The notes under the pieces are model-generated. The model saw only the letters and a program-made list of their open reading frames with translations. It made no database searches and had not been told where the DNA came from. Of a stretch of 64,000 bases of DNA, positions 2,024 through 51,975 are shown one piece after another. Source of the stretch: Spirochaetales bacterium (GTDB lineage: Bacteria > Spirochaetota > Spirochaetia > SZUA-6 > RPPD01); contig JAFGSW010000086.1 of NCBI GenBank assembly GCA_016934415.1, positions 2,042-66,041 on the forward strand. Direction: 5' to 3'. Each line of letters begins with the position of its first letter. Position 1 is the first letter of the stretch. The translations under genes and the position numbers were made by a program.

Positions 2024-2062
2024 GCAGGTTGTTGAACAAGCTCAACTTTTTCAGCAACCTGC
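2024..2062. repeat. Palindromic hairpin H1 (17 bp arms, loop CTCAA) immediately after the A2M TAG stop
   Basis: gcaggttgttgaacaag-ctcaa-ctttttcagcaacctgc. About 34/39 identical (87%) to the copy at 51836-51873. Confidence 0.7.
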
Positions 2063-5000
2063 TATTTGACCACCGTGACCCACTGACCGGGCAGGCGCGA
2101 TTGGATCGTGGCGTCGTACATCGCCTCCACGCTCTGTATGGGGAGGTAGAATTTTCCCAGGTAACTCGCGTTGAGCAGAACCTGGAAGGTCTTCGTCTCG
2201 TCCCGCGCCAGGTCGAAGAAAATATTGACCCGGTCGTCGCGCACATCGAGGTAATCGTAGGGCGAGTTGACCGCTCCGCCCGGTCCCTCCATGCGCAGGT
2301 TATGGATCTCCCAGCCGGAAGGGAAGAGAGCGGACAGGGCGAGCGTCTGCAGGGCCCGGCCGCTTGAGTTTCTCACCGTGATCACCGCCATGAGGTCGGT
2401 GCCCTGCTCAAGCGATTCGATCGACACCGCTTCTCCCTTGAGCCCCCGGTAGGAGACGTCGAGACTTAATCCGTTCGCCGACGGCTTCTCCCGCCCCGGC
2501 TCCGGCAACCCTTTGGCGAAGACGCGGACGAAGAGCGTCTGCCCGCCCGAGTTCGCCACCGTCACCCTCAGGTTGGCGCCGTTTCCGACCGGCAGAGGGA
2601 TCTGCATGACGGGCGCGCCGCTCTGTTTGGACGTCGGGGCGGCCGAGCCCGCGGCGTAGCTGAACTTCATGAGCCCGTCGCCCTGCCGCACGCCGGCGAA
2701 GCGCGCCATGGCCACCAGGCAGTAGGCCGTGGCCTGCGTGGAGAGCCAATCGTCCCGGCACAGGGCGTCGGATATCTCCTGAACGAGCTTGTCGGCCTGC
2801 GAGTAATTGTTCATGAGGGACATCGTTTCGAGGACGATCGCCTTGTCCCTGAGGTCCGAGCCGTAGGTGCCCGTGAGCTCGTGATAGACGCGGAAAACGA
2901 TGCGCTGGACGGCCGTGAGTTGGGAGGCGGCTTCTTTCTGGCCCGCGAGGGTGTAGGCGGCCGCCAGGTACCAGCGCGCGGTAACGGAGAGGTTTATCGA
3001 CTCGCGCAGCCGGTTCATGGATCCGATCTCGGGCGTGCCGTTCAAGGCCAGCCCGTAGAGGCGGTAGGCCTGGGTGAGCTGGCCGCTCTCGTCGCCGGGG
3101 CTCCAATTGAGGGCCCGGTTCTTCTGGTATTTCCGCCATTGGGAAAGCATCGCCTCGGGCACGTGGTAGGCGAGGCGCTTGGCCTCGAGCAGGAAGTGCC
3201 CGGCGTAGTTGCTCCCCCACTCATCGCTTTTACCGGCGCCGGGCCAGTAGCAGAATCCGCCGTCCGAATTCTGGAAAAACATGAGGCGGCTGATGCCGGC
3301 CTCGACGTTTCGCTGGACTGATTCCGCCTGCTGCGGGGAAAGCTCGAGGAGCTTGGGCAGGTAAAGCTGGGGGAAGACCGACGAGGTCGTCTGCTCGATG
3401 CAGCCGTAGGGGTAATGGATGAGGAAGTCGAGGCGCTTTCCCAGGTTGAGCGGCGGGATGCGCGAGACCTCGAGGGTCGCCTCGTTGGTGCCGGGGAGGC
3501 CCGGCAGCGCGACGTCCTTGACCGCCGTCTGGCCCGCGCCGACGGCCTGCGAGTGGACGTCCACCACGGGCAGGGCGGGCACCCGCACGTCGAATTCGAT
3601 CTTCTGGGAGATGCTCTCTCCCGCGCCGGACGCGTCGATGGCCACACTGGCGACGCCGGTCCGGTTCGCGGCCTTGAGCCGGAAGTTGAGCATCCCGTCT
3701 CCCGGTTCCTTGAAGGCGATGGTCTGGACGGCGGCCCCGTCGATCGAAACCGGTCCCTGGACGCTCACCTTTACGTTGACGTTTTTCAGCTTCGCCTCGG
3801 TGGCGAAAACGGCCACCGGCAGCGCGAACTCCTCGCCGACGGCGACGCTGCGCGGCAGGGTGCCCTGCACCATGAGGGGTTTCTTCACCGTGACCGTTTT
3901 TTCCGCGGCGCCGAAAGCCCGGCCATTGCCGGCCACGACCATCACCCGCACCGCGCCCACGTACAGCGGGATGTCGACGGTGTGGGTGCGTTTGACGCCG
4001 GCGGCCAGCGTGAACGGGCCGTAGAAGCGCACCAGGGGCGGGAAGCGTTCGGCCTTGCGGCCCTTGTCCGGCAGGAGGTCACCTTCGCCTCCGCCGATGG
4101 CGAGCAGCTGTTCGAGCTTGCCGCCGTAGGCAGCGGCGACGTAATCGTAGAGGTCCCAGGTGCCCACAGCGATCGCCTGTCGCTTGAAGAACAGGTCCCA
4201 CGGATCGGGCGTGGCGTAGCGGGTGAGTCCGAGCAGGCCCTCGTCAACCACGGCCAAGGTGTACGTCATGGCTGCGCCCTGCCGCTCGCTCACCGTGACC
4301 GCCGCCTTCGATTCCGGCTTAAAGACGTCGGTGCAGGCGATGGCGGGCTTCAAGTGCGTCGCCGGATTTTCCACCATCACCGGCAGGAATCCGTAGAGGC
4401 GGATGGGCATGTCGTTGCCCGTGCGCATGTGCGGCTGGAGGTAGGTGACGTGTGCGTAGATATTGGGCGCCATCTCGGCCGCGGCCGTGAACGAATAACG
4501 GTAGGTTTGATCGCTGGCCGCCGGCGTGAAATATTCGGTGGAGAGGATCTTTCCGCCGGCTTCGATGCACACCACGCCCCGGCCCTGCGGGGCGACCGGG
4601 ATGTTGAGGGTGATCTTGTCGCCGACGGCGTACTTTTCCTTGTCGGCGGAGAAGGTGAGCATGTTCGCGCCCGGCGAACCTTCAGCCTGGGCCCGGCCGG
4701 CCCAGCCCGGCCAGTCGATGTAAACGATTTTACCGGTGTTGTGGTTGCCCTCGAGGTCGCTCACATGGACGAAGAACCGGCCCCACTGGGGGTATTTGAC
4801 CTCGAACCGCCACGAGCCGCGGCCGTTTTTAAGCTCCACTACGTCGCTGTCCATCGGCTGGTAATCGGAGGTGCCGACGTAATTCGCCAGGTCTTCCTCT
4901 TCTTTCTCCCACCACCAGCGCCAGCGGATCTTGTACAGCTCGACCTTGACCCGCGCATTTTTAACCGGTTTCCCGTCCTGGTCGACGGCCATCAGGTCCA

Positions 5001-11606: not shown

Positions 11607-11627
11607 TCCGATAGCAAGTTAAGTTGA

Positions 11628-11661
11628 GGGCCGTCTCCCGCGAGGGGGACGGCCTTTTTTT
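11628..11661 (+). terminator. Rho-independent terminator of groEL
   Basis: gggccgtctccc-gcga-gggggacggcc followed by a T7 run. Confidence 0.6.
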
Positions 11662-11675
11662 CTCTTCTTGAAAAG

Positions 11676-11940
11676 GTCGATAAGGAAGCCAGGAACCCAG
11701 GAAAGGAGGAATGGGAAAGGAAGCGAGGAAACAGGAAAAGACAGAAGGGAGAAGGTGAATCAATTAAAATTTTTCAATTCTTGCTTTCAAAATTGTCAGA
11801 AACTTCGTCTGGCACTTTGCTTTTTCCTCTTACCAGCAGGGTGTTGTTCGTGTCATATGGGTTTTCTTCTTTGCCCTGCTCTTCTTTTTATTCGGTGTCC
11901 TCTTTTCCTCACCTGTCCTTCCTGGTTTCCTTATTGATCC
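11676..11940. mobile_element. MITE/Correia-like AT-rich intergenic element, copy E1 (~265 bp)
   Basis: Left end gtcgATAAGGAAGCCAGGAA, right end (revcomp) gatcaATAAGGAAACCAGGAAgg. Purine-rich left half and pyrimidine-rich right half, so the whole element is a long imperfect palindrome. The ORF 11668..11937 inside it is spurious. Confidence 0.6.
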
Positions 11941-19851: not shown

Positions 19852-20023
19852 GAAGAATAAATAAGGAAACCAGGAAGCCGGGAGAATGGAAAAATACTAT
19901 AAGCATCTACTGAAGGCCGATCATCGATTTTGTGAAAAGAGCACATGCGAAGCAATACATAAAGATTTCCATAACAAGTCGCCTCTTTTTTCATAGTTTC
20001 CTGGCTTCCTTATTGACTTCTTC
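19852..20023. mobile_element. MITE-like element copy E2 (~170 bp)
   Basis: Left gaagaaTAAATAAGGAAACCAGGAAgcc, right (revcomp) gaagaagTCAATAAGGAAGCCAGGAAac. Lies about 55 bp upstream of the membrane-protein gene start. Confidence 0.6.
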
Positions 20024-21111: not shown

Positions 21112-21130
21112 AGTTCATCACGAAGAACAC

Positions 21131-21366
21131 GAAGAAGAAGAAAGGAAGCTCAGGAAACCAGGAAACCAGGAATAGAAGTGAAGAGAGAATGGAATAAAAC
21201 AAGGTGGAGCGTAGAATAATAGAGACATAAAACAGAAAATTTATTACTGGGGGGAGGTGATATGAAAAAAAACACATTCATGTTGTTTGTGTCCGTCTTG
21301 AACACTATAATTAGGTATAAACGAAAACAAGCAGGAAGAAAGAAGATGTGTTTTTCCTGACTACTT
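21131..21366. repeat. Probable degenerate MITE-like copy E4
   Basis: Left gaagaagaagAAAGGAAGCTCAGGAAACCAGGAAACCAGG. AT-rich body. Right end tttttcctgactacttg (revcomp caagtagtCAGGAAAAA) matches only weakly. Confidence 0.35.
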
Positions 21367-21530
21367 GTTTTGCATTCGAAGCTTGCTCCGGGCGTATTGT
21401 GCAACGTAGAATCCAGCACGCCGAGAGGTGTTCGGAGCCTGCCCTGAGCTGCTTTGGAGCATGTATGCTCCAAAGCAAGCCGAAGGGTGACCTTCGTGTC
21501 CTCTTTTGAAGGTCCATAAAGGAGAGTTCA

Positions 21531-29751: not shown

Positions 29752-29775
29752 TGGAGAGTGATACTCCATATCAAA

Positions 29776-29841
29776 TGGTTTTCTATTTCCTAAGTCATCG
29801 GCTTGCGATAGACTGTGAGGGCATAAGGAAACAGAAAACCA
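29776..29841. repeat. 66-bp inverted repeat resembling a miniature copy of the MITE termini
   Basis: ggttttctatttcctaag, 29-nt spacer, cataaggaaacagaaaacc. Shares the ATAAGGAAAC core. Confidence 0.4.
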
Positions 29842-29853
29842 TTAAAATCGATA

Positions 29854-29881
29854 ATGCTGAAAAGTATTTGCTTTTCAGCAT
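29854..29881. repeat. Palindromic hairpin H2 (GAAAAG/CTTTTC-core family)
   Basis: atgctgaaaag-tatttg-cttttcagcat, a perfect 11-bp stem, between convergent genes. Confidence 0.5.
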
Positions 29882-29938
29882 AGTACTCCCCAGATTGTGC
29901 AGGACAAAACACGCCGCCCCCCGCCGGAAGGCCGGCCG

Positions 29939-32007: not shown

Positions 32008-32150
32008 TTTATAAGGAAACCAGGAAACCAGGAGAAAACGAAGAAAATTGACGCATTCGATACAATAATTTCAGATTCAATAGTAATTTTGATGGCATAT
32101 TTTTTTACTATTTCTCTTTCGATTGCTTTTTCCTGGATTCCTTATTGACC
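32008..32150. mobile_element. MITE-like element copy E3 (~143 bp)
   Basis: Left tttATAAGGAAACCAGGAAACCAGG, right (revcomp) ggtcaATAAGGAATCCAGGAAAAAgc. Flanked on both sides by tgaagag (32001-32007 and 32154-32160). Confidence 0.6.
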
Positions 32151-32205: not shown

Positions 32206-32234
32206 TTGTCAATCGCCCGGGACGTGGTTACAAT
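32206..32234 (+). promoter_or_regulatory. Sigma70-like promoter (TTGTCA-17-TACAAT) predicted to yield a leaderless mRNA
   Basis: The -10 ends 6 nt before the ATG at 32241, so the TSS is predicted at or next to the start codon. No RBS is possible. Confidence 0.5.
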
Positions 32235-32240
32235 AGTGAC

Positions 32241-33221
32241 ATGGTAGAAGGCCTCTCCAAACGCATCGCCGGGGACTGGGTTGATCTCGGGCAGGCCGGC
32301 TTGTCGTTGACAGCGCTCGCCGAGTACTTCGCCTTTGAGCCCCCGGTGGTCGCCGCGATTTCCCAGAAACTCTCATCGTCCGTACTCCAGGGGGTCGTCG
32401 AATACAAGCAGGGCGTGCTCCAGCCGCTCTTCCAGGTGCTGGAGGACATGAAGTACAAATCAATCGCCTTTGATGCGCTGGCGCGGCAGAATGGCGAGAT
32501 CGGGAGGCTCGTGTTCGTCACCCTCATCCAGCGCCTGTTCGCCTCGGGCGGGCTCAAACCCGAGGGCGGTGAAGAGTCCTCGCCCGCCGCCTCGGAGAAA
32601 CCAGAGACCGACCTCAAGGCGATCCTTGCGGACGTGATGACGCGCGTGCGCGAAGAACCCGCGCTCAAGAACAACACGGCCGTCAAGCTCATCCTCACCC
32701 AGCTCGCCATTTATCAGCGCGAGCGGGAGGTCATGGAAAAACTGAAACCGAATATCAAGGACCGGGAGAAGGCCGTCTCCTTCCGGAAAAATTTCACGGC
32801 CACGTTCAAGAAAATATCCCAGAATATCCGGAAATACTACGGCGAATTCATGGAGTCGCAGCGGGCGGGCGCCGATCGGGACCGGCGGCCGTCGCTCGGC
32901 CGGTACCGGCTGCGCGAGTTGACGGGGCTTTTTACCAGGCAGGCCCGCGAATTTGCGCGCATCCGGTCCACCCTCGGCTTCGCCCTCGATCAGAAATACA
33001 AGGTGCGGGAAATTTGCGTCCACCTGTTCAACGAAAAGAAAGAGTTTATTACCCTTCTCGATCAGGAGACGACCGCGTGCCGCGCGCTCATCGACGATGG
33101 GCCGGGCGGCGGGAAGCGGAACGACGGCCACGAAGTCAGCGTGGCCTTCGCCTCCGAAATCGCCGCGCTGGTGGGAAAACTGGCAGCGCGGGAAGTCAAA
33201 AGCGACCGGGAGTCGGATTAG
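32241..33221 (+). CDS. Hypothetical protein (326 aa)
   Basis: Protein-like composition with charged helical segments. No known domain. Confidence 0.55.
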   Translation: MVEGLSKRIAGDWVDLGQAGLSLTALAEYFAFEPPVVAAISQKLSSSVLQGVVEYKQGVLQPLFQVLEDMKYKSIAFDALARQNGEIGRLVFVTLIQRLFASGGLKPEGGEESSPAASEKPETDLKAILADVMTRVREEPALKNNTAVKLILTQLAIYQREREVMEKLKPNIKDREKAVSFRKNFTATFKKISQNIRKYYGEFMESQRAGADRDRRPSLGRYRLRELTGLFTRQAREFARIRSTLGFALDQKYKVREICVHLFNEKKEFITLLDQETTACRALIDDGPGGGKRNDGHEVSVAFASEIAALVGKLAAREVKSDRESD

Positions 33222-34518: not shown

Positions 34519-37500
34519 ATGCCTAAATTATCGGACATCGAAAAACTCAAGGATATCGTCGACGGTCTCGGCCAGGAGAGGGAAATCCGCGCCAAGCGCG
34601 GCGAGCAGGTCGAAGAAATCGCGCCGCCCGAGCAGGCGCTTTCCTCTGAGGACCTCGATTCCCTTCTCGGGACCGGAGAGTCCGAAGATGCTGCCGGTAC
34701 GCCCCGGCCGACCGAGGAGGTGATTGCCGACGCGCTGGAGGCGGTCGGCTCCGAGGACGCCCAGATAGACGACATTTCGCAGGCCCTGGAGGAAACGGGC
34801 GTCAGCGAGCCGTCTTCCGAGGATACCATGGGACTCGATGTACTCCCGGAAGCTTTCGGCGAGGAGCCGGGCCAAGCCCTGGAGGCTGCTTCGGGCGAAG
34901 AAAGACTAGGAACGGCGTTCGAGGAATTCGAGCTCCCCGATTTCGGCGGAGCCGAGGGCTCAGTGCTCGATGAGGCGGCCGCGGGAGCCGCCCTGGAAAC
35001 TGCCGCCGAACCGGTATCGGAAGCGGTCGAGGAGTTTTCCCTCCCGGAAGACCCCGGCGAAGCGCCCAAACCGACGGAGCCGACTACCGTACCGATTGAA
35101 GAGTTCTCCCTCCCGGAAGGCCTCGGCGAAGCGCCCGAACCGACGGAGCCGACTGCTGTGCCGGTCGAGGAGTTCTCCCTCCCGGAAGGCTTCGGCGAAA
35201 CGCCCGAGCCGGCGGAGCCGACAACCGTTTCGATTGAAGAGTTCTCTCTCCCCGGCGGCCTCGGCGAAGCGCCAGAACCGGCGGAGTCCGCGGCTGAGCC
35301 GGCACCGACTTTCGATCTCTCCGATTTCCAGATCTCCGAGTCTTTTGCCGGCGGTGAGAGCGATGCGGACAAACTTTTCGAATCGGTCCCTGAAACGCCG
35401 GCCGAACCCGCACCGGTGGAAGCCCAGGCCGAAGCGATGGAGGGCCTTCAGGAAATCGAAGCCGGAATCCCCGAAATAACCGGCGAGCCTTCGCCTTCGG
35501 CCCCGGAAACGGGAGGGTTCGAGTTCCCCGATCTGGGCGGCCTCGGCGGACCCGAAACCGAGCCGGGAGAGCCACTACCGTCTTTCGAAACCGAGATTCA
35601 GCCGCAGGCCGAGGAGGGCGAATTCGGCGGGGTGGAGGACAAGCTTTTCGACCTCCCCGAGGGGGAGGACTTCACCGCCGCACCCGCACCGTCGGGCGCT
35701 CCGCCGCCCGGCGCCGAACCGGAGGAGGCCGGAGCTTTCGCCGGCTTCGAAATGCCCGATCTGTCGGAGATCGGCGGCGCCTTGGAAGCGGAACCGCCGG
35801 CGCCCGGGGGGCAGGAGGAAGCCGGGGGGCCGCAGGACGAAGGGCTCGACATCATCGATACCGGTCAATTCGCGATGCCCGAGTTCGAGGGGCGGACGGC
35901 CCCTCAGGCGGCGGAAATACGCGAACTCGGGGAGTCGGGCGCTCCCGAAGAGCTGGCCGGCGCCGAAGACGACCTTCAATTCTCCCAGCACGACTTCGAC
36001 AACATCAAGGCCACCCTGGCCATCCTTCCCCTCAACCTGAAGATCGCCGTCGAGGACCTCATCGCGGATCATGGCCTGCAGGGCCCGAGACTGAGACGGC
36101 TCCTCGACGCGCTCATTGCCGGCGAATCCCCAAAGGCCGTCGCCGCCATCGTTTCCAGCATCACCGGCCGGAAAATCGTTCTGCCCAAAAGCTTCGAAAA
36201 GAGGTCCGGCATCGCCTTCGAGCGGGAGCGGGAAAGTTTCGCCTATTTCCTGCGCACCAAGGGCGCCCGGGCGGCTCTTTTCGCCGGCGCGGCGATCGTC
36301 ATCCTGTTCCTGCTCGCCTACGGGGCCTACGTGCTCGTGTTCCGCCCGCTTTCGGCCGTCGCCGTCTACGACAAGGGCTACGAGGCCATCCAGAAGGACC
36401 TGTACGAGGAGGCGCGGCGGAAATTCGACGAGGCCTCCCGCATCTGGGACTCGAAGGACCAGTATTACCGTTACGCCGAGGCCTTCGTCGCGAGCGCGGC
36501 GGGGAACTACCGCTACGCCGACCAGATGTACCGTATGCTCCTGCGGCGCTACCCCGGCGACGTGAAGGGCATGATCGATTACGCGCGCCTGGAGACGCTT
36601 CAGGGAAATTACGCCCACGCGGATTCGCTCCTCGAAGACGGGGTCCTCAAGCGCGAGCCGTACAATTACGACGCCCTGGCCGCCTGCGCGGACAATTACC
36701 TGACCTGGGCCGAGGAGGACGATTCGAAACTGAAGGACGCCCAGTACTATTACGCGACGCTCGCCGAACATTACCGGGAGCGGACCGCCGCCCACCTTAA
36801 ACGGATCGATTTCCTCATCCGCTCGGAGCGCATCGCGCGGAAGCAGGGCCTGTCCGACGTCGACAATACCAACCTCGTGATCGCCTATGCCGGTTTTCTC
36901 AAGAAAAAAGGCTGGGACCTCGTGGACCCGGCCGTGTACACCGAGATGGCCTCATACCTCATCGACAAGAACGAAACCGACCTCGTGCCCGAGCTTCTCG
37001 AAAAGACGCGAGCGGCCGACCCCGGGTACGCGCCGGCCTGGTACGAGACGGCCCGTAACGAGCGGTTGGCGGGGAAGACCGAAAACGAGCGGCGGGCGCT
37101 GGAAAAGGCCATCGATTTGTTTCGGAACTCCGAACAGGGGAACGCACGCGGCTTCCAGCTCGCCGCCGAGCGGCGGAACTCGCTGGACCGATCGGCCATG
37201 CTGGTGCTCGCGTTGAACCGCCTCGGAGAATACTGGATCGATCAGGGCAAGCCGGAACGCGCCGAAGACCTCCTGCTCGACGCGCAGCGGCTCTACGAGC
37301 AGTCCGCCTCCAGGCTGCAGACCACCCGCTTCGCCTCGGGCGGCGCGTTCGGGCGGCTCTATTACAACCTGGGGAACATCGCCCTCGGCGCCGGGAACGA
37401 CGAGCGCGCGCTCGCCATGTTCTCGGCCGCGGAAAAAAACGGGTTCACCAGCCCGGACCAAACGTACAAAAAGGGCTTTGTTCTCTACCGGCGGAAGGAT

Positions 37501-38103: not shown

Positions 38104-38389
38104 CCGGCGCCGGTCTGAACGCTCAATCCTCCATCATGATCGCCTTGACGGCGAGGAATCCGCGCGCCAGTCTTCGCTCCCCCTCGAAATTGATGAGCGG
38201 TTCGGCCCGATCGCGGGAAATACTGCGGGTGAGGAACTTCCAGGCGGTATCGTCCGACAACGTCACGGTCGCTTTTTATAAATTCTTATCCGTGTTATCC
38301 GTTCTTCTCAGTGTCCTGAGCCTGCCCTGAGCGACCCCTCACTCAATTTTTTGAGTGAGGGGGAGTCGAAGGGTGGTTCCCTTTTCTCT

Positions 38390-47951: not shown

Positions 47952-50324
47952 ATGAATCGCATGAAAGGCATCGGCGCGCTGCTCAAGGCATTGACCCTGG
48001 AGGAAAAGGCCTCCCTCATCATCGGGGCCGGGAATTGGACCACGGCGGCCGTGCCCCGTCTCGGGATCCCGTCGCTCTTTCTGGCCGACGGGCCGCACGG
48101 CGTGCGCCGCGTCGTGGACGAGCAGGGGCTGGGCATTCCCGGGCTGCCGGCCACCTGCTTCCCCACCGCCTCCTGCCTGGCCTCGACCTGGGATACGGCC
48201 CTCGTCGAGGAGCTGGGCCGGGCCCTTGGCGGCGAGGCCAAAGCCCTGCGCGTCGACGTCCTGCTCGGGCCGGGCGTCAACGTACGGCGCACGCCGCTGG
48301 GCGGGCGCAATTTCGAGTATTTTTCGGAGGACCCGTGCCTGGCCGGGGAGCTCGCGGCGGCGTTCATCCGCGGGGTGCAGAGCCGGGGCGTGGGGACCTC
48401 GCTCAAGCACTACGCGGCCAACAACCAGGAGTACGAGCGCTTCACCGTCGACGCCGTCGTCGACGAGCGCGCGCTGCGCGAGATCTACCTCGCCGCTTTC
48501 GAGACCGCGGTGAAAAAAGGCGCGCCCCGCACCGTGATGGCGGCCTACAACCGGGTGAACGGCGTGCGCGCCTGCGAGCACGCCGCGCTCATCGACGGAG
48601 TGCTGCGGCGCGAGTGGGGTTTCGACGGGGTCGTCGTCTCCGATTGGGGCGCGGTCAAGGACCGGGTCGTCTCATTGAAAGCGGGCCTGGATCTGGAGAT
48701 GCCCGGCCCGCGAAAGGACCGTCGCCGCGCCGTGGTGAGGGCGGTCAAGTCGGGAGCGCTGCCTCCGCGCGTTCTCGACCGGGCCGTGAGGCGGGTTCTG
48801 CGCCTGGCGGCGGCCTGCGCCGCGACATCCAAGGGCGGCGCGACGGATTGGGAGGCCCATCACTCGCTCGCCCGCCGGATCGCCGGGGAGGGTTTCGTGC
48901 TGCTGAAGAACGAGGGCGTGCTGCCGCTCGGCGATCCCGTGCGCGTCGCCGTCATCGGCCGCTCCGCCCCCGAGCCGTACGTCCAGGGCGGCGGCAGCTC
49001 CCGCGTCGCCGCCCGCCGCGTCGACGTCCCCCTGGACGAGATTCGCGCCCGGGCGGGCGGGGCGGAAGTATCTTTCTGTGAAGGATACCCGGCGGGTCCG
49101 GTCATCGATCAAAGGCTCGTGGACGAGGCGGCCGAACTCGCCCGCCGCGCCGAGGTCGCTCTTGTCTTCATCGCCCTCGACGAATTCGTCGAGTCCGAGA
49201 GCTGCGACCGGACGACGACCGATCTCCCGGCGAACCGGGTCGCCCTCATCAAGGCCGTGTGCGCCGCCCAACCGCGGACGGCGGTCATCCTCGGGAACGG
49301 GGGTGTGGTGACGATGGAGGAGTGGATCGACGGGGCCCCGGCCGTGCTCGAGACCTGGATGGCGGGCGAGGCCGGGGCCGGGGCAATCGCCGACGCGCTC
49401 TGGGGGGACGTCAATCCCTCGGGGAAGCTCCCGGAAACCGTGCCGCTCCGCCTGGCCGACACGCCGGCCTTCATCAACTACCCCGGCGAGAACGGCCGGG
49501 TGCGCTACGGCGAGGGGTTATTCGTCGGATACCGCTATTACGATTACCGGGGCGCGCCGGTGCGGTTTCCCTTCGGTCACGGCCTCTCCTATACGACCTT
49601 CGAGTACGGCCGGCTTTCATTCTCGGAGACGTCGTTCAAGGACGCTGACGGCCTCACCGTTTCGTTCGAGATCGCCAACACCGGAACGCGGGCGGGGAGA
49701 GAAACGGCGCAGGTGTACGTCCGCGACGTCCGCGCCTCGCTCGCGCGGCCGGTTAAGGAGCTCAAGGCCTTCGTCAAGACGGCGCTCGAGCCGGGCGAGC
49801 GGAAGGCGATCTCGGTTCATCTCGATTTCCGCGCCTTCGCCTTCTACCATCCGGGACTCGGCCGCTGGGTCGCCGAGAGCGGCGAGTTCGAGATCCTCGT
49901 CGGCTCCTCGGCCGCCGACATCCGCCTGCGGGGCGCGGTGCGGCTGCGCTCGACCGCAGGCGAACCGAGTTTGCTCGCCCCCGGATCGTCGGTGCGCCTG
50001 TGGCTGGACGACGAGCGCGGCGGTCCGCTCGTGCGGCCGCTCGTGGAGAAAATCGAGGCCGCGCTCTCGAAGGAGGGTGGCGGCGGGATGCTGGGATTTA
50101 TCCTGGAATCGCCGCTCGAGCGCCTCCTCCGCCAGTGGGAGGAGCCGCTCGCCCTCAACGCCGACGAGACAATGGCGGATATCATGCGGCGACTTCACGG
50201 GAAGTTTTCCGCGCCAAAACAGCCACGGAGACCCGGAGGACACGGAGGAGGAAAAGGAAACAATAAGGAAGCCAGGAAACCAGGAAAAAGGAATCTAGGA
50301 AAAGGGATCCAGGAAAAGAAATAG
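47952..50324 (+). CDS. Glycoside hydrolase family 3 beta-glucosidase whose last ~20 codons and stop are supplied by a MITE-like element
   Basis: GH3 motifs (GFDGVVVSDWGAV; KHYAANNQE). The tail ...NNKEARKPGKRNLGKGIQEKK* is encoded by aataaggaagccaggaaaccaggaaaaagg... Confidence 0.9.
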   Translation: MNRMKGIGALLKALTLEEKASLIIGAGNWTTAAVPRLGIPSLFLADGPHGVRRVVDEQGLGIPGLPATCFPTASCLASTWDTALVEELGRALGGEAKALRVDVLLGPGVNVRRTPLGGRNFEYFSEDPCLAGELAAAFIRGVQSRGVGTSLKHYAANNQEYERFTVDAVVDERALREIYLAAFETAVKKGAPRTVMAAYNRVNGVRACEHAALIDGVLRREWGFDGVVVSDWGAVKDRVVSLKAGLDLEMPGPRKDRRRAVVRAVKSGALPPRVLDRAVRRVLRLAAACAATSKGGATDWEAHHSLARRIAGEGFVLLKNEGVLPLGDPVRVAVIGRSAPEPYVQGGGSSRVAARRVDVPLDEIRARAGGAEVSFCEGYPAGPVIDQRLVDEAAELARRAEVALVFIALDEFVESESCDRTTTDLPANRVALIKAVCAAQPRTAVILGNGGVVTMEEWIDGAPAVLETWMAGEAGAGAIADALWGDVNPSGKLPETVPLRLADTPAFINYPGENGRVRYGEGLFVGYRYYDYRGAPVRFPFGHGLSYTTFEYGRLSFSETSFKDADGLTVSFEIANTGTRAGRETAQVYVRDVRASLARPVKELKAFVKTALEPGERKAISVHLDFRAFAFYHPGLGRWVAESGEFEILVGSSAADIRLRGAVRLRSTAGEPSLLAPGSSVRLWLDDERGGPLVRPLVEKIEAALSKEGGGGMLGFILESPLERLLRQWEEPLALNADETMADIMRRLHGKFSAPKQPRRPGGHGGGKGNNKEARKPGKRNLGKGIQEKK
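50262..50300. repeat. Left terminus of a partial or truncated MITE-like element copy E5 overlapping the GH3 3' end
   Basis: AATAAGGAAGCCAGGAAACCAGGAAAAAGG. No convincing right terminus found downstream. Confidence 0.4.
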
Positions 50325-50645
50325 GGAAACTGAAAAGGGGAATGAAGGAAATAGATATGCTTATCGCTTTTTTACCGAAATCCTTCCCTGATTTTTCCAA
50401 AACTCTTCCTTTTTTTTTCAAGTTCCGATTATAGGTACGAGTGTATGGTGATTCGCATTCTCCAGACCGGATTATCTTTTCCATTTTTCTTCTTCTTTAT
50501 CCGTGTCATCCGTTCCTATCCGTGGTTCCCTCCCTCGTTGAATGAATGCCGCGAATTGTGTTCCCCCGCAAAATGCTATATAATGATGGCATCAACCGTC
50601 GGCATGAGCCGGACACCCGCACTTCCACCGGAGAAAGGAACGACG

Positions 50646-51836
50646 ATGATGACTGCTTTTTCCGCAACCAGGAAATACTTCTGCCTCGTCCTTGCGGCGG
50701 CGCTGTTTTTGGGCGCCGCGGGGGGGGCGTACGCCCAGGGGAAGGCCGTGAAGATCGGCTTCGTGAAGATCGAGAACTCGAGCGAAGACCCGCGCTACGA
50801 CTACCTCGAGGGTATCGTGAGCGGCACCCTGCTCTACGACCTGTCCAACGCCCCGGGACTCGTCGTCGTGGATCGGGCCTTGCTTGACAACATCCTCAAG
50901 GAGCAGGAGCTTATTTTAAGCGACCTGGTCAAGGCCGACAACGCCGTCCGCGTCGGGAAGATTCTCGGCGCCGACTACCTCCTCAAGGGCGATTACGTTT
51001 TCCTCGGAAACGAAATCCGGCTGAACGTCTCCATCATCAACGTGGAATCGGCCAAGACCATGACCTTCAAGGAGACCGGCTCCACGGAAAACCTGGTGCA
51101 CGCCGTGTGCGAGCGGATCATCGAGCGCCTCACGGGCAACCAGGTCGCCCTGCGCTCGGACGAGCACGACCGGTCGATCATCTCGCTCAAGGACGAGAAG
51201 CCCGGTTCGATCGGCCTGTTCTGCAACCTCATCGACGCCGAAATTTTCGTGGACGACCAGTTCGTCTGCTACTCCACGGGCAAGGCCAACGTGCCGAGCG
51301 AGCTCACCGGTCTGAAGCCGGGCAAGCACACGGTGCGCGTCCGCCTGACGGGCTTCGGCGTGGTCAAGGCGCCGGAGATCACCTTCTCCGACTGGCAGCA
51401 GGCGGTGGACGTGAAGCCGGGACAGCGGCAGGTGGTCCGCGCGCAGATAACACTTTTCACCTACCAGCTCTACGACCTGCAGAAGCTCCTCTCCGACCAC
51501 GTCCGGATCGAAGCCGCGGATTTCGGCAAGCCCTTCTCCAAGGAAATGGAATTCGAATACGTCGACCGCGCAAGCAAAAAGCACAAAGGAAATCTGAAGC
51601 TCTCGCTCGCCGCCGCGGAAGCGCAGGCCGAGCTCAAGGCCGAGCTCACTCTCGACGGAAAGAAACGTTCGTACTCGCTCACATGCCCGGCCAAGAAAAG
51701 GACGAAGAGCGATGAAACCTTCGGCAAGGTGGATATTAAACTTGAGTTGGACTACTACTATCCCGACCGTTATTGCCGAATAGAATATCGCGTCACGCGG
51801 AACGACATCAGCCAGGACATGTGGCACAAGGAATAG
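50646..51836 (+). CDS. Secreted protein with an N-terminal CsgG-like domain
   Basis: Start MMTAFSATRKYFCLVLAAALFLGAAGGAYAQG (signal peptide) with a GGAGAAAGGAA RBS; the ORF-track start at 50445 is an extension. Pattern VKIGFVKIEN...DRALLDNILKEQELILSDL...VGKILGADYLLKG...IRLNVSIINVESAKTM resembles the CsgG fold. Confidence 0.65.
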   Translation: MMTAFSATRKYFCLVLAAALFLGAAGGAYAQGKAVKIGFVKIENSSEDPRYDYLEGIVSGTLLYDLSNAPGLVVVDRALLDNILKEQELILSDLVKADNAVRVGKILGADYLLKGDYVFLGNEIRLNVSIINVESAKTMTFKETGSTENLVHAVCERIIERLTGNQVALRSDEHDRSIISLKDEKPGSIGLFCNLIDAEIFVDDQFVCYSTGKANVPSELTGLKPGKHTVRVRLTGFGVVKAPEITFSDWQQAVDVKPGQRQVVRAQITLFTYQLYDLQKLLSDHVRIEAADFGKPFSKEMEFEYVDRASKKHKGNLKLSLAAAEAQAELKAELTLDGKKRSYSLTCPAKKRTKSDETFGKVDIKLELDYYYPDRYCRIEYRVTRNDISQDMWHKE

Positions 51837-51873
51837 CAGGCTGTTGAAAAAGTTGAGCTTTTTCAACAGCCTG
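51836..51873. repeat. Palindromic hairpin H4 overlapping the last base of the TAG stop of the CsgG-like gene
   Basis: gcaggctgttgaaaaag-ttgag-ctttttcaacagcctg. 16-bp stem, no trailing T-run. Confidence 0.7.
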
Positions 51874-51900
51874 ATGGAACGATATATTGTCGCGTTCAAG

Positions 51901-51932
51901 GCCCGCCGCGAAACGTGCGGGCTTTTTTTTTT
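51901..51932 (+). terminator. Rho-independent terminator
   Basis: gcccgc-cgcgaaacgt-gcgggc followed by a T10 run. Confidence 0.7.
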
Positions 51933-51942
51933 ATGAAAATAC

Positions 51943-51975
51943 TATAAGGAATCCAGGAGATAAGGAAGCCAGGGA
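51943..51975. repeat. Solo duplicated MITE-terminus motif E6
   Basis: ctATAAGGAATCCAGGAgATAAGGAAGCCAGGGaaaaaa. Confidence 0.35.

What the first reader, a model, noticed from the sequence alone, without database searches (positions are those of the whole stretch)
11676..11940. Apparently undescribed MITE/Correia-like repeat family with AATAAGGAARCCAGGAA terminal inverted repeats
Three complete copies sit in intergenic DNA, all with the same left-to-right polarity. E1 is 11676-11940 (~265 bp), E2 is 19852-20023 (~170 bp), E3 is 32008-32150 (~143 bp). A probable fourth copy lies at 21131-21366, with a good left end but a weak right end; a left-end-only copy lies at 50262-50300; a solo duplicated terminus lies at 51943-51975; and a 66-bp mini-hairpin using the same core lies at 29776-29841. 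Each complete copy is an AT-rich island in a 62% GC genome. Each is bounded by ~20 bp imperfect inverted repeats, for example E2 left gaagaaTAAATAAGGAAACCAGGAA against right (revcomp) gaagaagTCAATAAGGAAGCCAGGAA. The body runs purine-rich then pyrimidine-rich, so the whole element can fold into one long hairpin. That is the architecture of Correia, ERIC and other non-autonomous mini transposable elements. E3 is flanked by the direct repeat tgaagag on both sides, which may be a target-site duplication. I see no equivalent duplication around E1, and the matching gaagaa beside E2 is arranged as an inverted extension of the TIR rather than a direct repeat.
Basis: seen in the sequence. Interest (0 to 1): 0.8.

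Follow-up and report, generated by a model that had tools for sequence, protein, structure and literature searches.

The report
Palindromic repeats from GxxExxY gene cassettes
The repeats are real: they are gene-less hairpin "shells" of a small selfish DNA cassette found in many bacterial phyla, whose complete form carries one tiny nuclease-like gene and which, as far as I could find, has not been described.

Summary
AATAAGGAARCCAGGAA occurs 9 times in the window against 0 expected. It forms three inward-facing pairs (E1 11679-11935, E2 19860-20014, E3 32010-32146) plus four solo arms. Each pair encloses AT-rich DNA (31-42% GC against 61%) that folds into a long hairpin.

It is not a classical MITE. 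The interiors are unrelated, 64 family members show no target-site duplication, and no transposase is linked to it.

The arms are a 24-nt block of three 8-nt units (ATAAGGAA-nCCAGGAA-nnCAGGAA). The same inverted pair occurs in MAGs of at least 7 other phyla. The 420-520-bp versions enclose a ~125-aa GxxExxY (PF13366, PD-(D/E)XK fold) gene. Versions of 130-240 bp keep fragments of that gene. Most copies are 50-110-bp hairpins.

In a metagenome sample of GxxExxY genes, 57 of 80 are bracketed by such triple-octamer inverted arms. The arms come in several "dialects" (CCAGGAA, CACGAA, CACAGAG and others). Relatives of this spirochaete carry different dialects at the same intergenic slots, and one relative has empty slots.

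Best reading: these are decayed, ORF-less members of an IVS-like selfish cassette family. How the family spreads is unknown.

The parts
11679..11935 (.). E1: complete ORF-less element. The left arm is 11679-11703 (GATAAGGAA GCCAGGAA CCCAGGAA, followed by more xxAGGAA units to about 11745). The right arm is 11912-11935.
   Evidence: arms; hairpin -94.8 kcal/mol, z -3.4; GC 0.42; right arm and right flank ~97% identical in L117, interior not alignable
11626..11665 (+). Context: the intrinsic terminator of groEL (stem plus T-run). E1 starts about 15 nt after it.
   Evidence: conserved in L117, L119 and L120
19815..19845 (+). Remnant left arm of an older CACGGAT-dialect palindrome (ctacggatagcacggatgaaactgatg). 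E2 lies inside it.
   Evidence: L117 keeps the full CACGGAT/ATCCGTG palindrome at this site
19860..20014 (.). E2: complete ORF-less element. The arms are 19860-19884 and 19991-20014. It is absent as such from L117.
   Evidence: (-54.4 kcal/mol, z -3.9)
21118..21436 (+). E4: truncated composite element. The left arm has CACGAAG units (21118-21135) followed by CCAGGAA units (21150-21173). The right arm is missing in the window.
   Evidence: the L117 orthologue has the same left arm and a CTTCGTG-type right arm directly before cggagcctgccc
32010..32146 (.). E3: complete ORF-less element. The arms are 32010-32034 and 32123-32146. It has an orthologue in L202.
   Evidence: (81-87% identical to L202, core included)
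50223..50525 (.). E5: composite palindrome. The outer arms are of the CACGGAG dialect (50223-50250 and 50497-50525). An inner CCAGGAA-dialect left arm lies at 50262-50316, and its right partner has decayed.
   Evidence: (I7)
51944..51975 (+). E6: two tandem solo left-arm heads (ATAAGGAATCCAGGAG and ATAAGGAAGCCAGGGA). They lie 11 nt after the terminator at 51900-51932.
38285..38309 (+). Solo pyrimidine (right-type) arm of the CACGGAT dialect: cttatccgtgttatccgttcttctc.
29774..29843 (.). It is probably not a family member: it shares only ATAAGGAAAC and its arms are in the opposite order. It lies in an AT-rich insert that is absent from L202.
   Evidence: (I23); no hit with the arm HMM

Best explanation
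What it is. E1 (11679-11935) and its sisters are ORF-less, decaying members of a widespread family of small palindromic cassettes.

Structure of a complete cassette (shown): a left arm of about three tandem 8-nt units with almost no T (here ATAAGGAA-nCCAGGAA-nnCAGGAA); a ~125-aa gene for a GxxExxY protein (TIGR04256 / PF13366, PD-(D/E)XK nuclease fold); and the reverse complement of the arm. The left arm carries Shine-Dalgarno-like sequence just 5' of the start codon, and in some copies it holds the start codon itself. Deletions leave arms around gene fragments, and in the end arms around a short loop. Such short forms make up most copies.

In this Spirochaetales MAG (shown): the elements lie in the dead space between an upstream terminator or stop codon and the next promoter, between co-directional genes. 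They have been gained, nested into older elements of other arm 'dialects', rearranged or lost since this genome split from its relatives.

What is shown and what is inferred. Shown: the anatomy, the link to the gene, the decay series, the distribution across phyla and the turnover at orthologous sites. Inferred: (i) the cassettes are selfish and spread, within and between genomes, by a process that leaves no target duplication and favours T-rich or terminator-proximal DNA and the ends or loops of existing copies, possibly helped in trans by the encoded nuclease acting on hairpin or cruciform arms; (ii) when read through from the upstream gene, the arms pair into a long stem that would be an RNase III substrate, as in 23S rRNA intervening sequences, which would make insertion nearly harmless; (iii) the window copies have no dedicated host function.
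For: Arms are real and specific:
- 9 hits against 0 expected.
- An HMM built from arms found outside the window picks out the same 10 arms in the window.

Same arm pair elsewhere:
- 53 of 116 genome hits have an inverted partner with at most 3 mismatches within 1.5 kb. My own calculation gives about 2 expected by chance. The hits come from Verrucomicrobiota, Planctomycetota, Chloroflexota, Thermodesulfobacteriota/Syntrophaceae, Latescibacterota, Lindowbacteria and Armatimonadota.
- Conservation stops sharply at the outer A of ATAAGG.

Cargo and decay series:
- L058 and L052 pairs enclose GxxExxY genes (TIGR04256, E = 2e-38 and 7e-40; PF13366, E = 5e-37).
- L011 and L030 (two copies) keep only the 5' and 3' ends of the ORF, with different breakpoints.
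- Among the 42 motif-found genome elements, 33 are at most 112 bp, 7 are 131-237 bp and 2 carry the gene.

Reciprocal test starting from the gene:
- Of 13 metagenomic GxxExxY genes at least 60% identical to the query, 11 have both CCAGGAA arms with at most 2 mismatches.
- 57 of 80 genes have upstream/downstream inverted arms scoring at least 16, against a shuffle maximum of 12-14.
- The arms are triple octamers in dialects that match on both sides and track protein similarity: CCAGGAA, CACGAAA, CACAGAG/CACGGAG, CGCCAAGA, CGCAGAG, CACGGATTA.
- The CACGAAG and CACGGAT dialects are the ones seen at the E1, E2 and E3 slots in relatives.

Turnover at orthologous sites:
- L120 has empty slots after groEL and after tkt.
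- L121 has flanks 92% identical to L120 but carries an insert of ~130 nt.
- The E2 module is absent from L117.
- L129/L130 have two extra hairpins at a junction where L052, L125 and L123 have none.

Other:
- Predicted hairpins and low GC.
- GxxExxY genes are co-oriented with both neighbours, 45:7 upstream and 46:8 downstream. All six window sites are +/+ intergenic.
- The AF2 model (pLDDT 92.6) has a PD-(D/E)XK fold, nearest to Cas4, lambda exonuclease and RecB-type nucleases. D69 and K81 of the D...ExK signature are invariant.
- The architecture parallels the Coxiella and Leptospira 23S IVS: a 28-bp terminal stem, a small decaying ORF, low GC and RNase III excision (PMC4990558).
Against: - No GxxExxY gene or detectable remnant lies in this window or in the ~90 kb fetched from relatives. 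The link to the window copies therefore rests on arm identity alone.
- Interiors are unrelated, even between hairpins of one MAG. Simple copy-and-paste of whole units does not explain this.
- No clean filled-versus-empty junction could be read. L121's left junction is N-masked, and L120 is too diverged from the window.
- No target-site duplication and no known recombinase or transposase were found, so mobility is inferred from distribution and polymorphism only.
- Mismatches in the arms show no bias towards G-U pairs on the sense strand (77 against 71). An RNA-level role is therefore not supported by covariation.
- E3 is as conserved as the flanking genes between the window and L202, which hints at constraint.
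- The slot is occupied in nearly all relatives, which could also mean host function.
Confidence: 0.6

Rival explanations
1. Classical MITE. These are internally deleted derivatives of a DDE-transposase insertion sequence. They are mobilised in trans by cut-and-paste through the terminal inverted repeats and generate target-site duplications, as Correia elements do.
For: Terminal inverted repeats, small size, AT-richness, multiple copies and intergenic location. Presence/absence differences between relatives. Short forms far outnumber coding forms.
Against: Flanking direct repeats of 2-6 nt occur no more often than in shuffled pairings across 64 elements. E3's 'tgaagag' is not conserved in its orthologue. 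Interiors are unrelated. No transposase ORF was found between arms in about 270 loci; the only recurrent cargo is GxxExxY. The ends read AT..AT, so a 2-bp palindromic duplication cannot be excluded.
Confidence: 0.1
2. Host-selected structural or regulatory element that is not mobile. Paired arms would be kept between terminators and promoters as insulators, RNase III processing sites, mRNA-stabilising stems or protein-binding arrays. The purine arms look like Shine-Dalgarno or CsrA-type GGA motifs. GxxExxY genes would simply use the same regulatory stem.
For: The same slot is filled in the window, L117/L202, L119/L203, L204 and L121. E3 is conserved at the level of coding DNA. Arms are conserved while loops are free. 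Arms carry SD-like UAAGGA/AGGA sequence, with anti-SD-like sequence opposite. Solo arms have a consistent orientation relative to transcription.
Against: Identical 24-nt arms in at least 8 phyla travel together with one small gene. Arm dialects differ between close relatives at the same slot, and cores are unrelated. L120 does without them. Copies pile up end to end. GC is far below the host's. Other dialects (CACAGAG, CGCCAAGA) lack GGA motifs. There is no G-U strand bias.
Confidence: 0.15
3. Gene-cassette system. The arms or short hairpins would be recombination sites, functionally like integron attC hairpins, for a site-specific recombinase encoded elsewhere. The recombinase would insert promoter-less single-gene cassettes in arrays.
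For: Single promoter-less ORFs are bracketed by imperfect inverted repeats and co-oriented with their neighbours. Units abut with 1-nt spacers in arrays (L129, L137). Hairpins of 50-110 bp are in the attC size range. There is no target duplication. A different cargo, an M15-peptidase-like ORF, follows an arm in L255.
Against: No integrase was seen next to any array. Here the two arms pair across the gene, rather than each cassette carrying one self-paired site. Cargo is almost always the same family. attC sequence and structure signatures (R/L boxes, extrahelical bases) were not found or tested.
Confidence: 0.07

Closest known systems
23S rRNA intervening sequences (IVS) of Coxiella, Leptospira and Salmonella, some carrying an S23p / four-helix-bundle ORF (PMC4990558)
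   Same: A 0.1-0.5-kb insert bounded by complementary termini that form a long stem (28 bp in Coxiella). A small ORF of unknown function sits in the loop and is decaying. GC is lower than the host's. Distribution is sporadic and points to horizontal transfer. The mechanism of mobility is unknown. ORF-less versions exist.
   Different: IVSs sit in helix 25 or 45 of 23S rRNA and are shown to be excised by RNase III. The elements here lie between protein genes. Their cargo is a PD-(D/E)XK (GxxExxY) protein, not PF05635. Their arms are triple 8-nt repeats. Transcription and processing have not been tested.
Correia elements and other bacterial MITEs (my own knowledge: Neisseria, ~100-155 bp, 26-bp inverted repeats, TA duplication, IHF site, RNase III processing, outward promoters)
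   Same: Short, non-coding, inverted-repeat-bounded intergenic repeats that fold into hairpins. Many copies. Polymorphic between strains. The right arm here ends in ..CCTTATTGAC, which could supply an outward -35 box.
   Different: No target duplication. Interiors are not homologous. Arms are made of tandem octamers. The family is not clade-restricted. The coding relative has a nuclease-fold gene, not a transposase.
REP/BIME elements with RAYT transposases (PMC3733652)
   Same: Extragenic palindromes, often clustered in arrays. Found at orthologous intergenic slots with lineage-specific sequence. Linked to one small gene family scattered among them. No target duplication.
   Different: REPs are 20-40 bp with a GTAG or CGTC head (abstract of PMC3733652), and the partner gene is an HUH/Y1 transposase. 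Here the head is ATAAGG (or other dialects), the arms flank the gene itself, and the gene has a PD-(D/E)XK fold.
Integron attC gene cassettes (my own knowledge)
   Same: Promoter-less single-gene units with imperfect palindromic boundaries. Tandem arrays. Same orientation as the surrounding transcription.
   Different: No integrase or attI was seen. The arms pair across the gene. Cargo is nearly uniform.

Membership tests
MITE (non-autonomous DNA transposon) | Terminal inverted repeats | tested here: met
   17-24-nt arms in inverted orientation at E1, E2 and E3
MITE (non-autonomous DNA transposon) | Target-site duplication flanking each copy | tested here: not met
   Across 64 elements, flank matches for k = 2-6 equal the shuffle expectation. 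The E3 candidate is not conserved in L202. A 2-bp AT..AT duplication hidden inside the arm cannot be excluded.
MITE (non-autonomous DNA transposon) | Copies homologous over their whole length | tested here: not met
   Interiors of E1-E4 do not align. Among 75 elements, only orthologues or tandem duplicates share interiors.
MITE (non-autonomous DNA transposon) | Autonomous parent encoding a transposase with the same inverted repeats | tested here: not met
   The only recurrent ORF between these arms is GxxExxY / PF13366. No transposase was seen.
MITE (non-autonomous DNA transposon) | Insertion polymorphism between related genomes | tested here: met
   L120 empty against L121 filled, with flanks 92% identical. 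E2 module absent from L117. Extra hairpins in L129/L130.
Correia element | Neisseria-type 26-bp inverted-repeat sequence, TA duplication, IHF site | tested here: not met
   Arm sequence is unrelated. No duplication. IHF site not examined.
REP/BIME-RAYT | 20-40-bp palindrome with a GTAG or CGTC head; associated Y1 (RAYT) transposase | tested here: not met
   Arms start with ATAAGG. The associated gene has a PD-(D/E)XK fold.
23S rRNA intervening sequence | Located in 23S rRNA helix 25 or 45 | tested here: not met
   All window copies lie between protein-coding genes. Rfam finds no rRNA in the window.
23S rRNA intervening sequence | Terminal complementary stem enclosing a small or decayed ORF | tested here: met
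   Folds. ORF-bearing and ORF-remnant relatives.
23S rRNA intervening sequence | Excision of the stem-loop from the transcript by RNase III | not testable with these tools
   Needs RNA-seq, RACE or in-vitro cleavage.
GxxExxY-cassette family (defined here) | Arms of about three tandem 8-nt units, T-poor on the left, in inverted orientation | tested here: met
   E1-E3 arms match an HMM of 141 external arms (E from 3e-7 to 1e-3). Unit structure shown.
GxxExxY-cassette family (defined here) | GxxExxY ORF, or a recognisable remnant, between the arms | tested here: not met
   tblastn against E1-E6 and against the whole window gave nothing above noise. The window copies are assigned through their arms only.
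Integron gene cassette | attC site with R''/L''/L'/R' boxes and a nearby intI/attI | not tested
   No integrase was noticed in the loci. attC structure was not modelled.

The most novel reading that the evidence does not exclude
The triple-octamer arms plus the GxxExxY gene may form a previously unrecognised class of autonomous mobile element. In this reading, a minimal PD-(D/E)XK nuclease recognises the hairpin or cruciform formed by its own arms. Each arm 'dialect' would co-evolve with its protein. The nuclease would drive insertion without target duplication, next to terminators and into existing hairpins. The element would have seeded thousands of ORF-less hairpins across at least 8 bacterial phyla. 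The same logic may explain the origin of ORF-bearing rRNA intervening sequences.
Probability: 0.3. Interest if true: 0.85.

Novelty: new variant of a known kind. Interest (0 to 1): 0.65.

Why it matters
- GxxExxY/PF13366 is a very large family: at least 7,900 clusters at 90% identity matched one query. The only survey I found that classifies it lists its function as 'unknown' (PMC3424549).
- These genes sit in a stereotyped inverted-repeat cassette that decays into hairpins. That gives the family a testable biology as selfish DNA with a nuclease and a hairpin substrate.
- It explains a class of AT-rich palindromes that litter the intergenic DNA of many uncultured lineages.
- It offers a free-living analogue of the long-unexplained rRNA intervening sequences.
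- It has a practical side. The stop-free arms extend ORF calls (for example 47952-50324 here), and the palindromes coincide with assembly breaks.

Tried and rejected
- Rfam: the whole window at gathering thresholds, then E1 and 8 related loci at relaxed E-values. Only sub-threshold miRNA or sRNA-like noise came back.
- GxxExxY remnants in the window elements: nothing above noise.
- Exact look-up of the window's GroEL: not on record. The source was identified through a homologue search instead.
- Target-site duplication test: negative.
- G-U against A-C mismatch asymmetry, to tell RNA pairing from DNA pairing: 77 against 71, uninformative.
- Viral contigs: 63 motif hits, only 9 of them paired and none with GxxExxY, so phages are not an obvious vector.
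- GxxExxY against PDB sequences, PADLOC and PHROGs: no hits. Fold search gave only generic PD-(D/E)XK neighbours.
- A general search for other cargo between T-poor inverted repeats was swamped by GC-rich coding noise.
- Literature: searches for the motif, for other arm dialects, and for GxxExxY, PDDEXK_3, PF13366 and the TIGR identifiers found no description of the flanking repeats. Subscription-only papers were not searchable.
- A sigma-54 reading of 'tggcac' after E2 was considered and dropped, because the spacing is wrong. It fits a conserved -35/-10 pair instead.

Full report
OBSERVATION

The 17-mer AATAAGGAARCCAGGAA has 9 matches with at most 2 mismatches in the window, against 0 in 100 shuffles. 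The matches are at 11679+, 11919-, 19860+, 19998-, 21156+, 32010+, 32130-, 50262+ and 51959+. Reading the DNA confirms three inward-facing pairs (E1, E2, E3) and several solo plus-strand arms.

The pairs enclose AT-rich DNA: GC is 0.42, 0.39 and 0.31 against 0.61 for the window. They fold into single long hairpins: -94.8, -54.4 and -39.1 kcal/mol, with z-scores of -3.4, -3.9 and -2.3.

A profile built only from 141 arms collected outside the window finds the same arms and nothing else. In particular it does not find the 29776-29841 'mini-hairpin'.

The interiors of E1-E4 do not align; only the ends do. 'Same polarity' is automatic for a palindromic pair.

CONTEXT

GC3-based gene calls and Pfam place every copy between co-directional plus-strand genes:
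- groEL -> E1 -> small ORF/merR
- tkt -> E2 -> hypothetical gene
- hypothetical gene -> E4 -> pilZ
- hypothetical gene -> E3 -> hypothetical gene
- GH3 -> E5 -> csgG-like gene
- csgG-like gene -> E6

E1, E2 and E6 begin 10-60 nt after an intrinsic terminator. Each element ends upstream of a promoter-like region that is conserved in relatives, for example TTGTCA-17-TACAAT after E3.

SOURCE AND RELATIVES

GroEL is 100% identical to a protein of a 'Spirochaetales bacterium' MAG on a 67,487-bp contig. I fetched syntenic contigs with GroEL identities of 96% (L117/L118/L202), 95% (L119/L203), 92% (L120) and 91% (L121), plus L204 and L205. DNA identity to the window is about 87% for L117/L202 and about 80% for L119/L203.

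At the groEL-downstream slot:
- The window and L117 share the terminator, the right arm and the right flank at ~97% identity. Their interiors cannot be aligned.
- L119 has a palindrome with CACGAAG arms.
- L121 has an insert ending in ..cccttcgtgg.
- L120 goes straight from the terminator to the shared downstream sequence. Its flanks are 91-92% identical to those of L121.

At the tkt-downstream slot:
- L117 has a complete CACGGAT/ATCCGTG palindrome.
- The window keeps that left arm but then carries the CCAGGAA module E2, and it lacks the ATCCGTG right arm.
- L119 has yet another composite.
- L120 is empty.

At the E3 slot:
- L202 has an orthologue 81-87% identical, core included.
- L203, L204 and L205 carry CACGAAG-armed elements with unrelated cores.

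So the slots turn over, and three arm 'dialects' coexist in this clade. The 50262 'left-end-only' copy lies inside a ~300-bp composite palindrome with outer CACGGAG/ATCCGTG arms.

BEYOND THE CLADE

Single hits are expected by chance; my estimate is roughly 1,000 in 596 Gb. But 53 of the 116 have an inverted partner with at most 3 mismatches within 1.5 kb, where I calculate about 2 by chance.

With at most 2 mismatches per arm, the loci held at that point gave 62 distinct elements in all, counting the metagenome and window copies. The genome-scan members come from Verrucomicrobiota, Planctomycetota, Chloroflexota, Thermodesulfobacteriota/Syntrophaceae, Latescibacterota, Lindowbacteria, Armatimonadota and unclassified MAGs.

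The conserved block is ATAAGGAA-nCCAGGAA-nnCAGGAA, and conservation stops abruptly at the outer A. Outside it there is only a weak T-rich (left) and A-rich (right) bias. Of the 42 motif-found genome elements, 33 are 52-112 bp, 7 are 131-237 bp and 2 are 420-444 bp.

CARGO

The two long elements (L058, L052) each hold one ORF of 124-127 aa that matches TIGR04256 'GxxExxY protein' (E = 2e-38 and 7e-40) and PF13366 PDDEXK_3 (E = 5e-37). L011 and two tandem copies in L030 keep only the first ~15-30 and last ~15-30 codons of such an ORF, with different breakpoints. That gives a decay series from gene-bearing cassette to hairpin.

The left arm lies immediately 5' of the start and contains AGGA/AGGAG. 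In L125 and L137 the start codon is inside the arm (ATAAGGAAGCC-ATG-AAACCAGGA).

RECIPROCAL TEST

I fetched 80 metagenomic GxxExxY loci.
- Of the 13 at least 60% identical to the query, 11 have both CCAGGAA arms with at most 2 mismatches. One has a near dialect (GCAGGAA) and one has only the right arm.
- Overall, 57 of 80 have an upstream/downstream inverted repeat scoring at least 16, against a shuffle maximum of 12-14.
- The arms are almost always about three tandem 8-nt units, with the same dialect on both sides: CCAGGAA, CACGAAA, CACAGAG/CACGGAG, CGCCAAGA, CGCAGAG, CACGGATTA. The dialect follows protein similarity.
- The CACGAA and CACGGA dialects are the ones seen in the spirochaete relatives.
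- The genes are co-oriented with their neighbours: 45:7 upstream and 46:8 downstream.
- Units often abut with a 1-nt spacer. L129/L130 carry two extra hairpins at a junction where L052, L125 and L123 have none.

THE PROTEIN

At least 7,938 clusters at 90% identity match at E <= 1e-10. The AF2 model (pLDDT 92.6) has an alpha-alpha-beta-beta-beta-alpha-beta-beta layout. Its best PDB neighbours are Cas4, lambda exonuclease and RecB-type PD-(D/E)XK nucleases, at weak E-values of about 3e-3. D69 and K81 of the D...ExK signature are invariant.

There was no PDB sequence hit, no PADLOC hit and no PHROG hit. The PD-(D/E)XK survey lists PDDEXK_3 as function 'unknown' with 'multiple transfers' (PMC3424549).

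TESTS OF THE MITE MODEL

- No target-site duplication. For 64 elements, direct flank matches at k = 2, 3 and 4 are 5, 3 and 1, against shuffle means of 4.8, 1.6 and 0.4.
- E3's 'tgaagag' reads tgaagaa / tcaagaa in its orthologue.
- Interiors are shared only by orthologues or tandem duplicates.
- No transposase was found.

So the elements behave like MITEs in that they are small, bounded by inverted repeats, polymorphic and more numerous than the coding form. They fail three defining features.

RNA OR DNA?

Mismatches between arms of 57 oriented cassettes are G-U-compatible on the sense strand 77 times and on the antisense strand 71 times. Covariation therefore does not favour an RNA stem over symmetric DNA sites. 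The co-orientation of the genes and the position after terminators are compatible with read-through transcription.

The closest documented analogue is the 23S rRNA intervening sequence: a 28-bp terminal stem, a small decaying ORF, low GC, RNase III excision and an unknown means of mobility (PMC4990558).

KNOWN OR NEW?

Rfam 15 has nothing. Full-text searches for the motif, for other dialects, and for GxxExxY, PDDEXK_3, PF13366, TIGR04256 and TIGR02436 returned no description of these flanking repeats. Subscription-only literature could not be searched, so 'undescribed' is provisional.

VERDICT

The window holds decayed, ORF-less members (E1, E2, E3; truncated or composite E4, E5, E6) of a cross-phylum family of palindromic single-gene cassettes with triple-octamer arms.

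Shown: the anatomy, the gene link, the decay series and the turnover. Inferred: selfish spread without target duplication, possibly driven by the nuclease, and an IVS-like neutralising stem.

Open points:
- Interiors are unrelated between copies.
- The same slot is occupied again and again.
- E3 is unexpectedly well conserved.
- No GxxExxY gene was found in the sequence available for this clade.

Noticed in passing
window 21437-21500 and 38311-38385 (also the end of L117, about 21640): A second repeat family: GAGCCTGCCCTGAGC, then a variable GC-rich hairpin, then AGYCGAAGGGTG. Both window copies lie downstream of an octamer-armed element: the 38311 copy directly 3' of the solo pyrimidine arm at 38285-38309, the 21437 copy at the right edge of E4, where the window has lost the right arm that L117 keeps.
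   Followed up: no
window 2025-2066 and 51832-51873: A 42-nt palindromic, terminator-like repeat, 90% identical between the two copies (AATAGCAGGCTGTTGAAAAAGTTGAGCTTTTTCAACAGCCTG). It overlaps the stop codons of two unrelated genes on opposite strands (I1).
   Followed up: no
window 47952-50324 and 50445-51836: The T-free and A-free arms contain no stop codons. As a result the GH3 ORF runs about 100 nt into E5, and the mechanical start of the csgG-like ORF falls inside E5's right arm. The true start is probably near 50606, after a TATAAT-like box.
   Followed up: partly
window 21264-21362: The E4 core has a strong SD (GGAGGTGAT) followed by a 32-aa hydrophobic and basic ORF (MKKNTFMLFVSVLNTIIRYKRKQAGRKKMCFS). 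It looks like a small toxin but is not conserved in L117.
   Followed up: partly
window 32206-32241 (and L202-L205): The conserved promoter TTGTCA-17-TACAAT ends 6 nt before the ATG of the 326-aa gene. This suggests a leaderless mRNA.
   Followed up: no
window 29758-29926: An AT-rich stretch of about 130 nt within a 169-nt gap in the alignment to L202, holding the 18-bp-stem hairpin. The closest relative, L202, has only 46 nt here. It does not match the arm HMM.
   Followed up: partly
window 32010-32146 against L202 9769-9905: E3, including its core, is 81-87% identical between two genomes whose other intergenic DNA is mostly unalignable. This points to possible constraint or recent exchange.
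   Followed up: partly
L066 ~1850-1950, L117 ~19860-19960, L121 ~11656-11755: Runs of N begin at or next to these palindromic elements in three MAG contigs. This suggests the elements break or confuse assemblies. It also hid the left junction of L121.
   Followed up: no
L255 1537-2017 (viral contig): A CCAGGAA arm directly follows a terminator and supplies the RBS for an M15-peptidase-like 140-aa ORF, judged by eye from the H..D..H motif. A 50-bp hairpin of the family follows the ORF. This is a possible non-GxxExxY cargo.
   Followed up: partly
L052 6400-6410, L125 ~586-600: The upstream host gene reads into the left arm and stops at the TGA of ..CCATGA... That TGA overlaps the ATG of the GxxExxY gene, an arrangement that suggests translational coupling.
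   Followed up: no
window 34955-35299: Four to five 69-bp tandem repeats inside the 1194-aa ORF (D1 and D5).
   Followed up: no
L103 3717-4298: An IS200/RAYT-like Y1 transposase ORF (..LPDHLHTIW..) lies between its own inverted repeats. It is unrelated to the family studied here.
   Followed up: no
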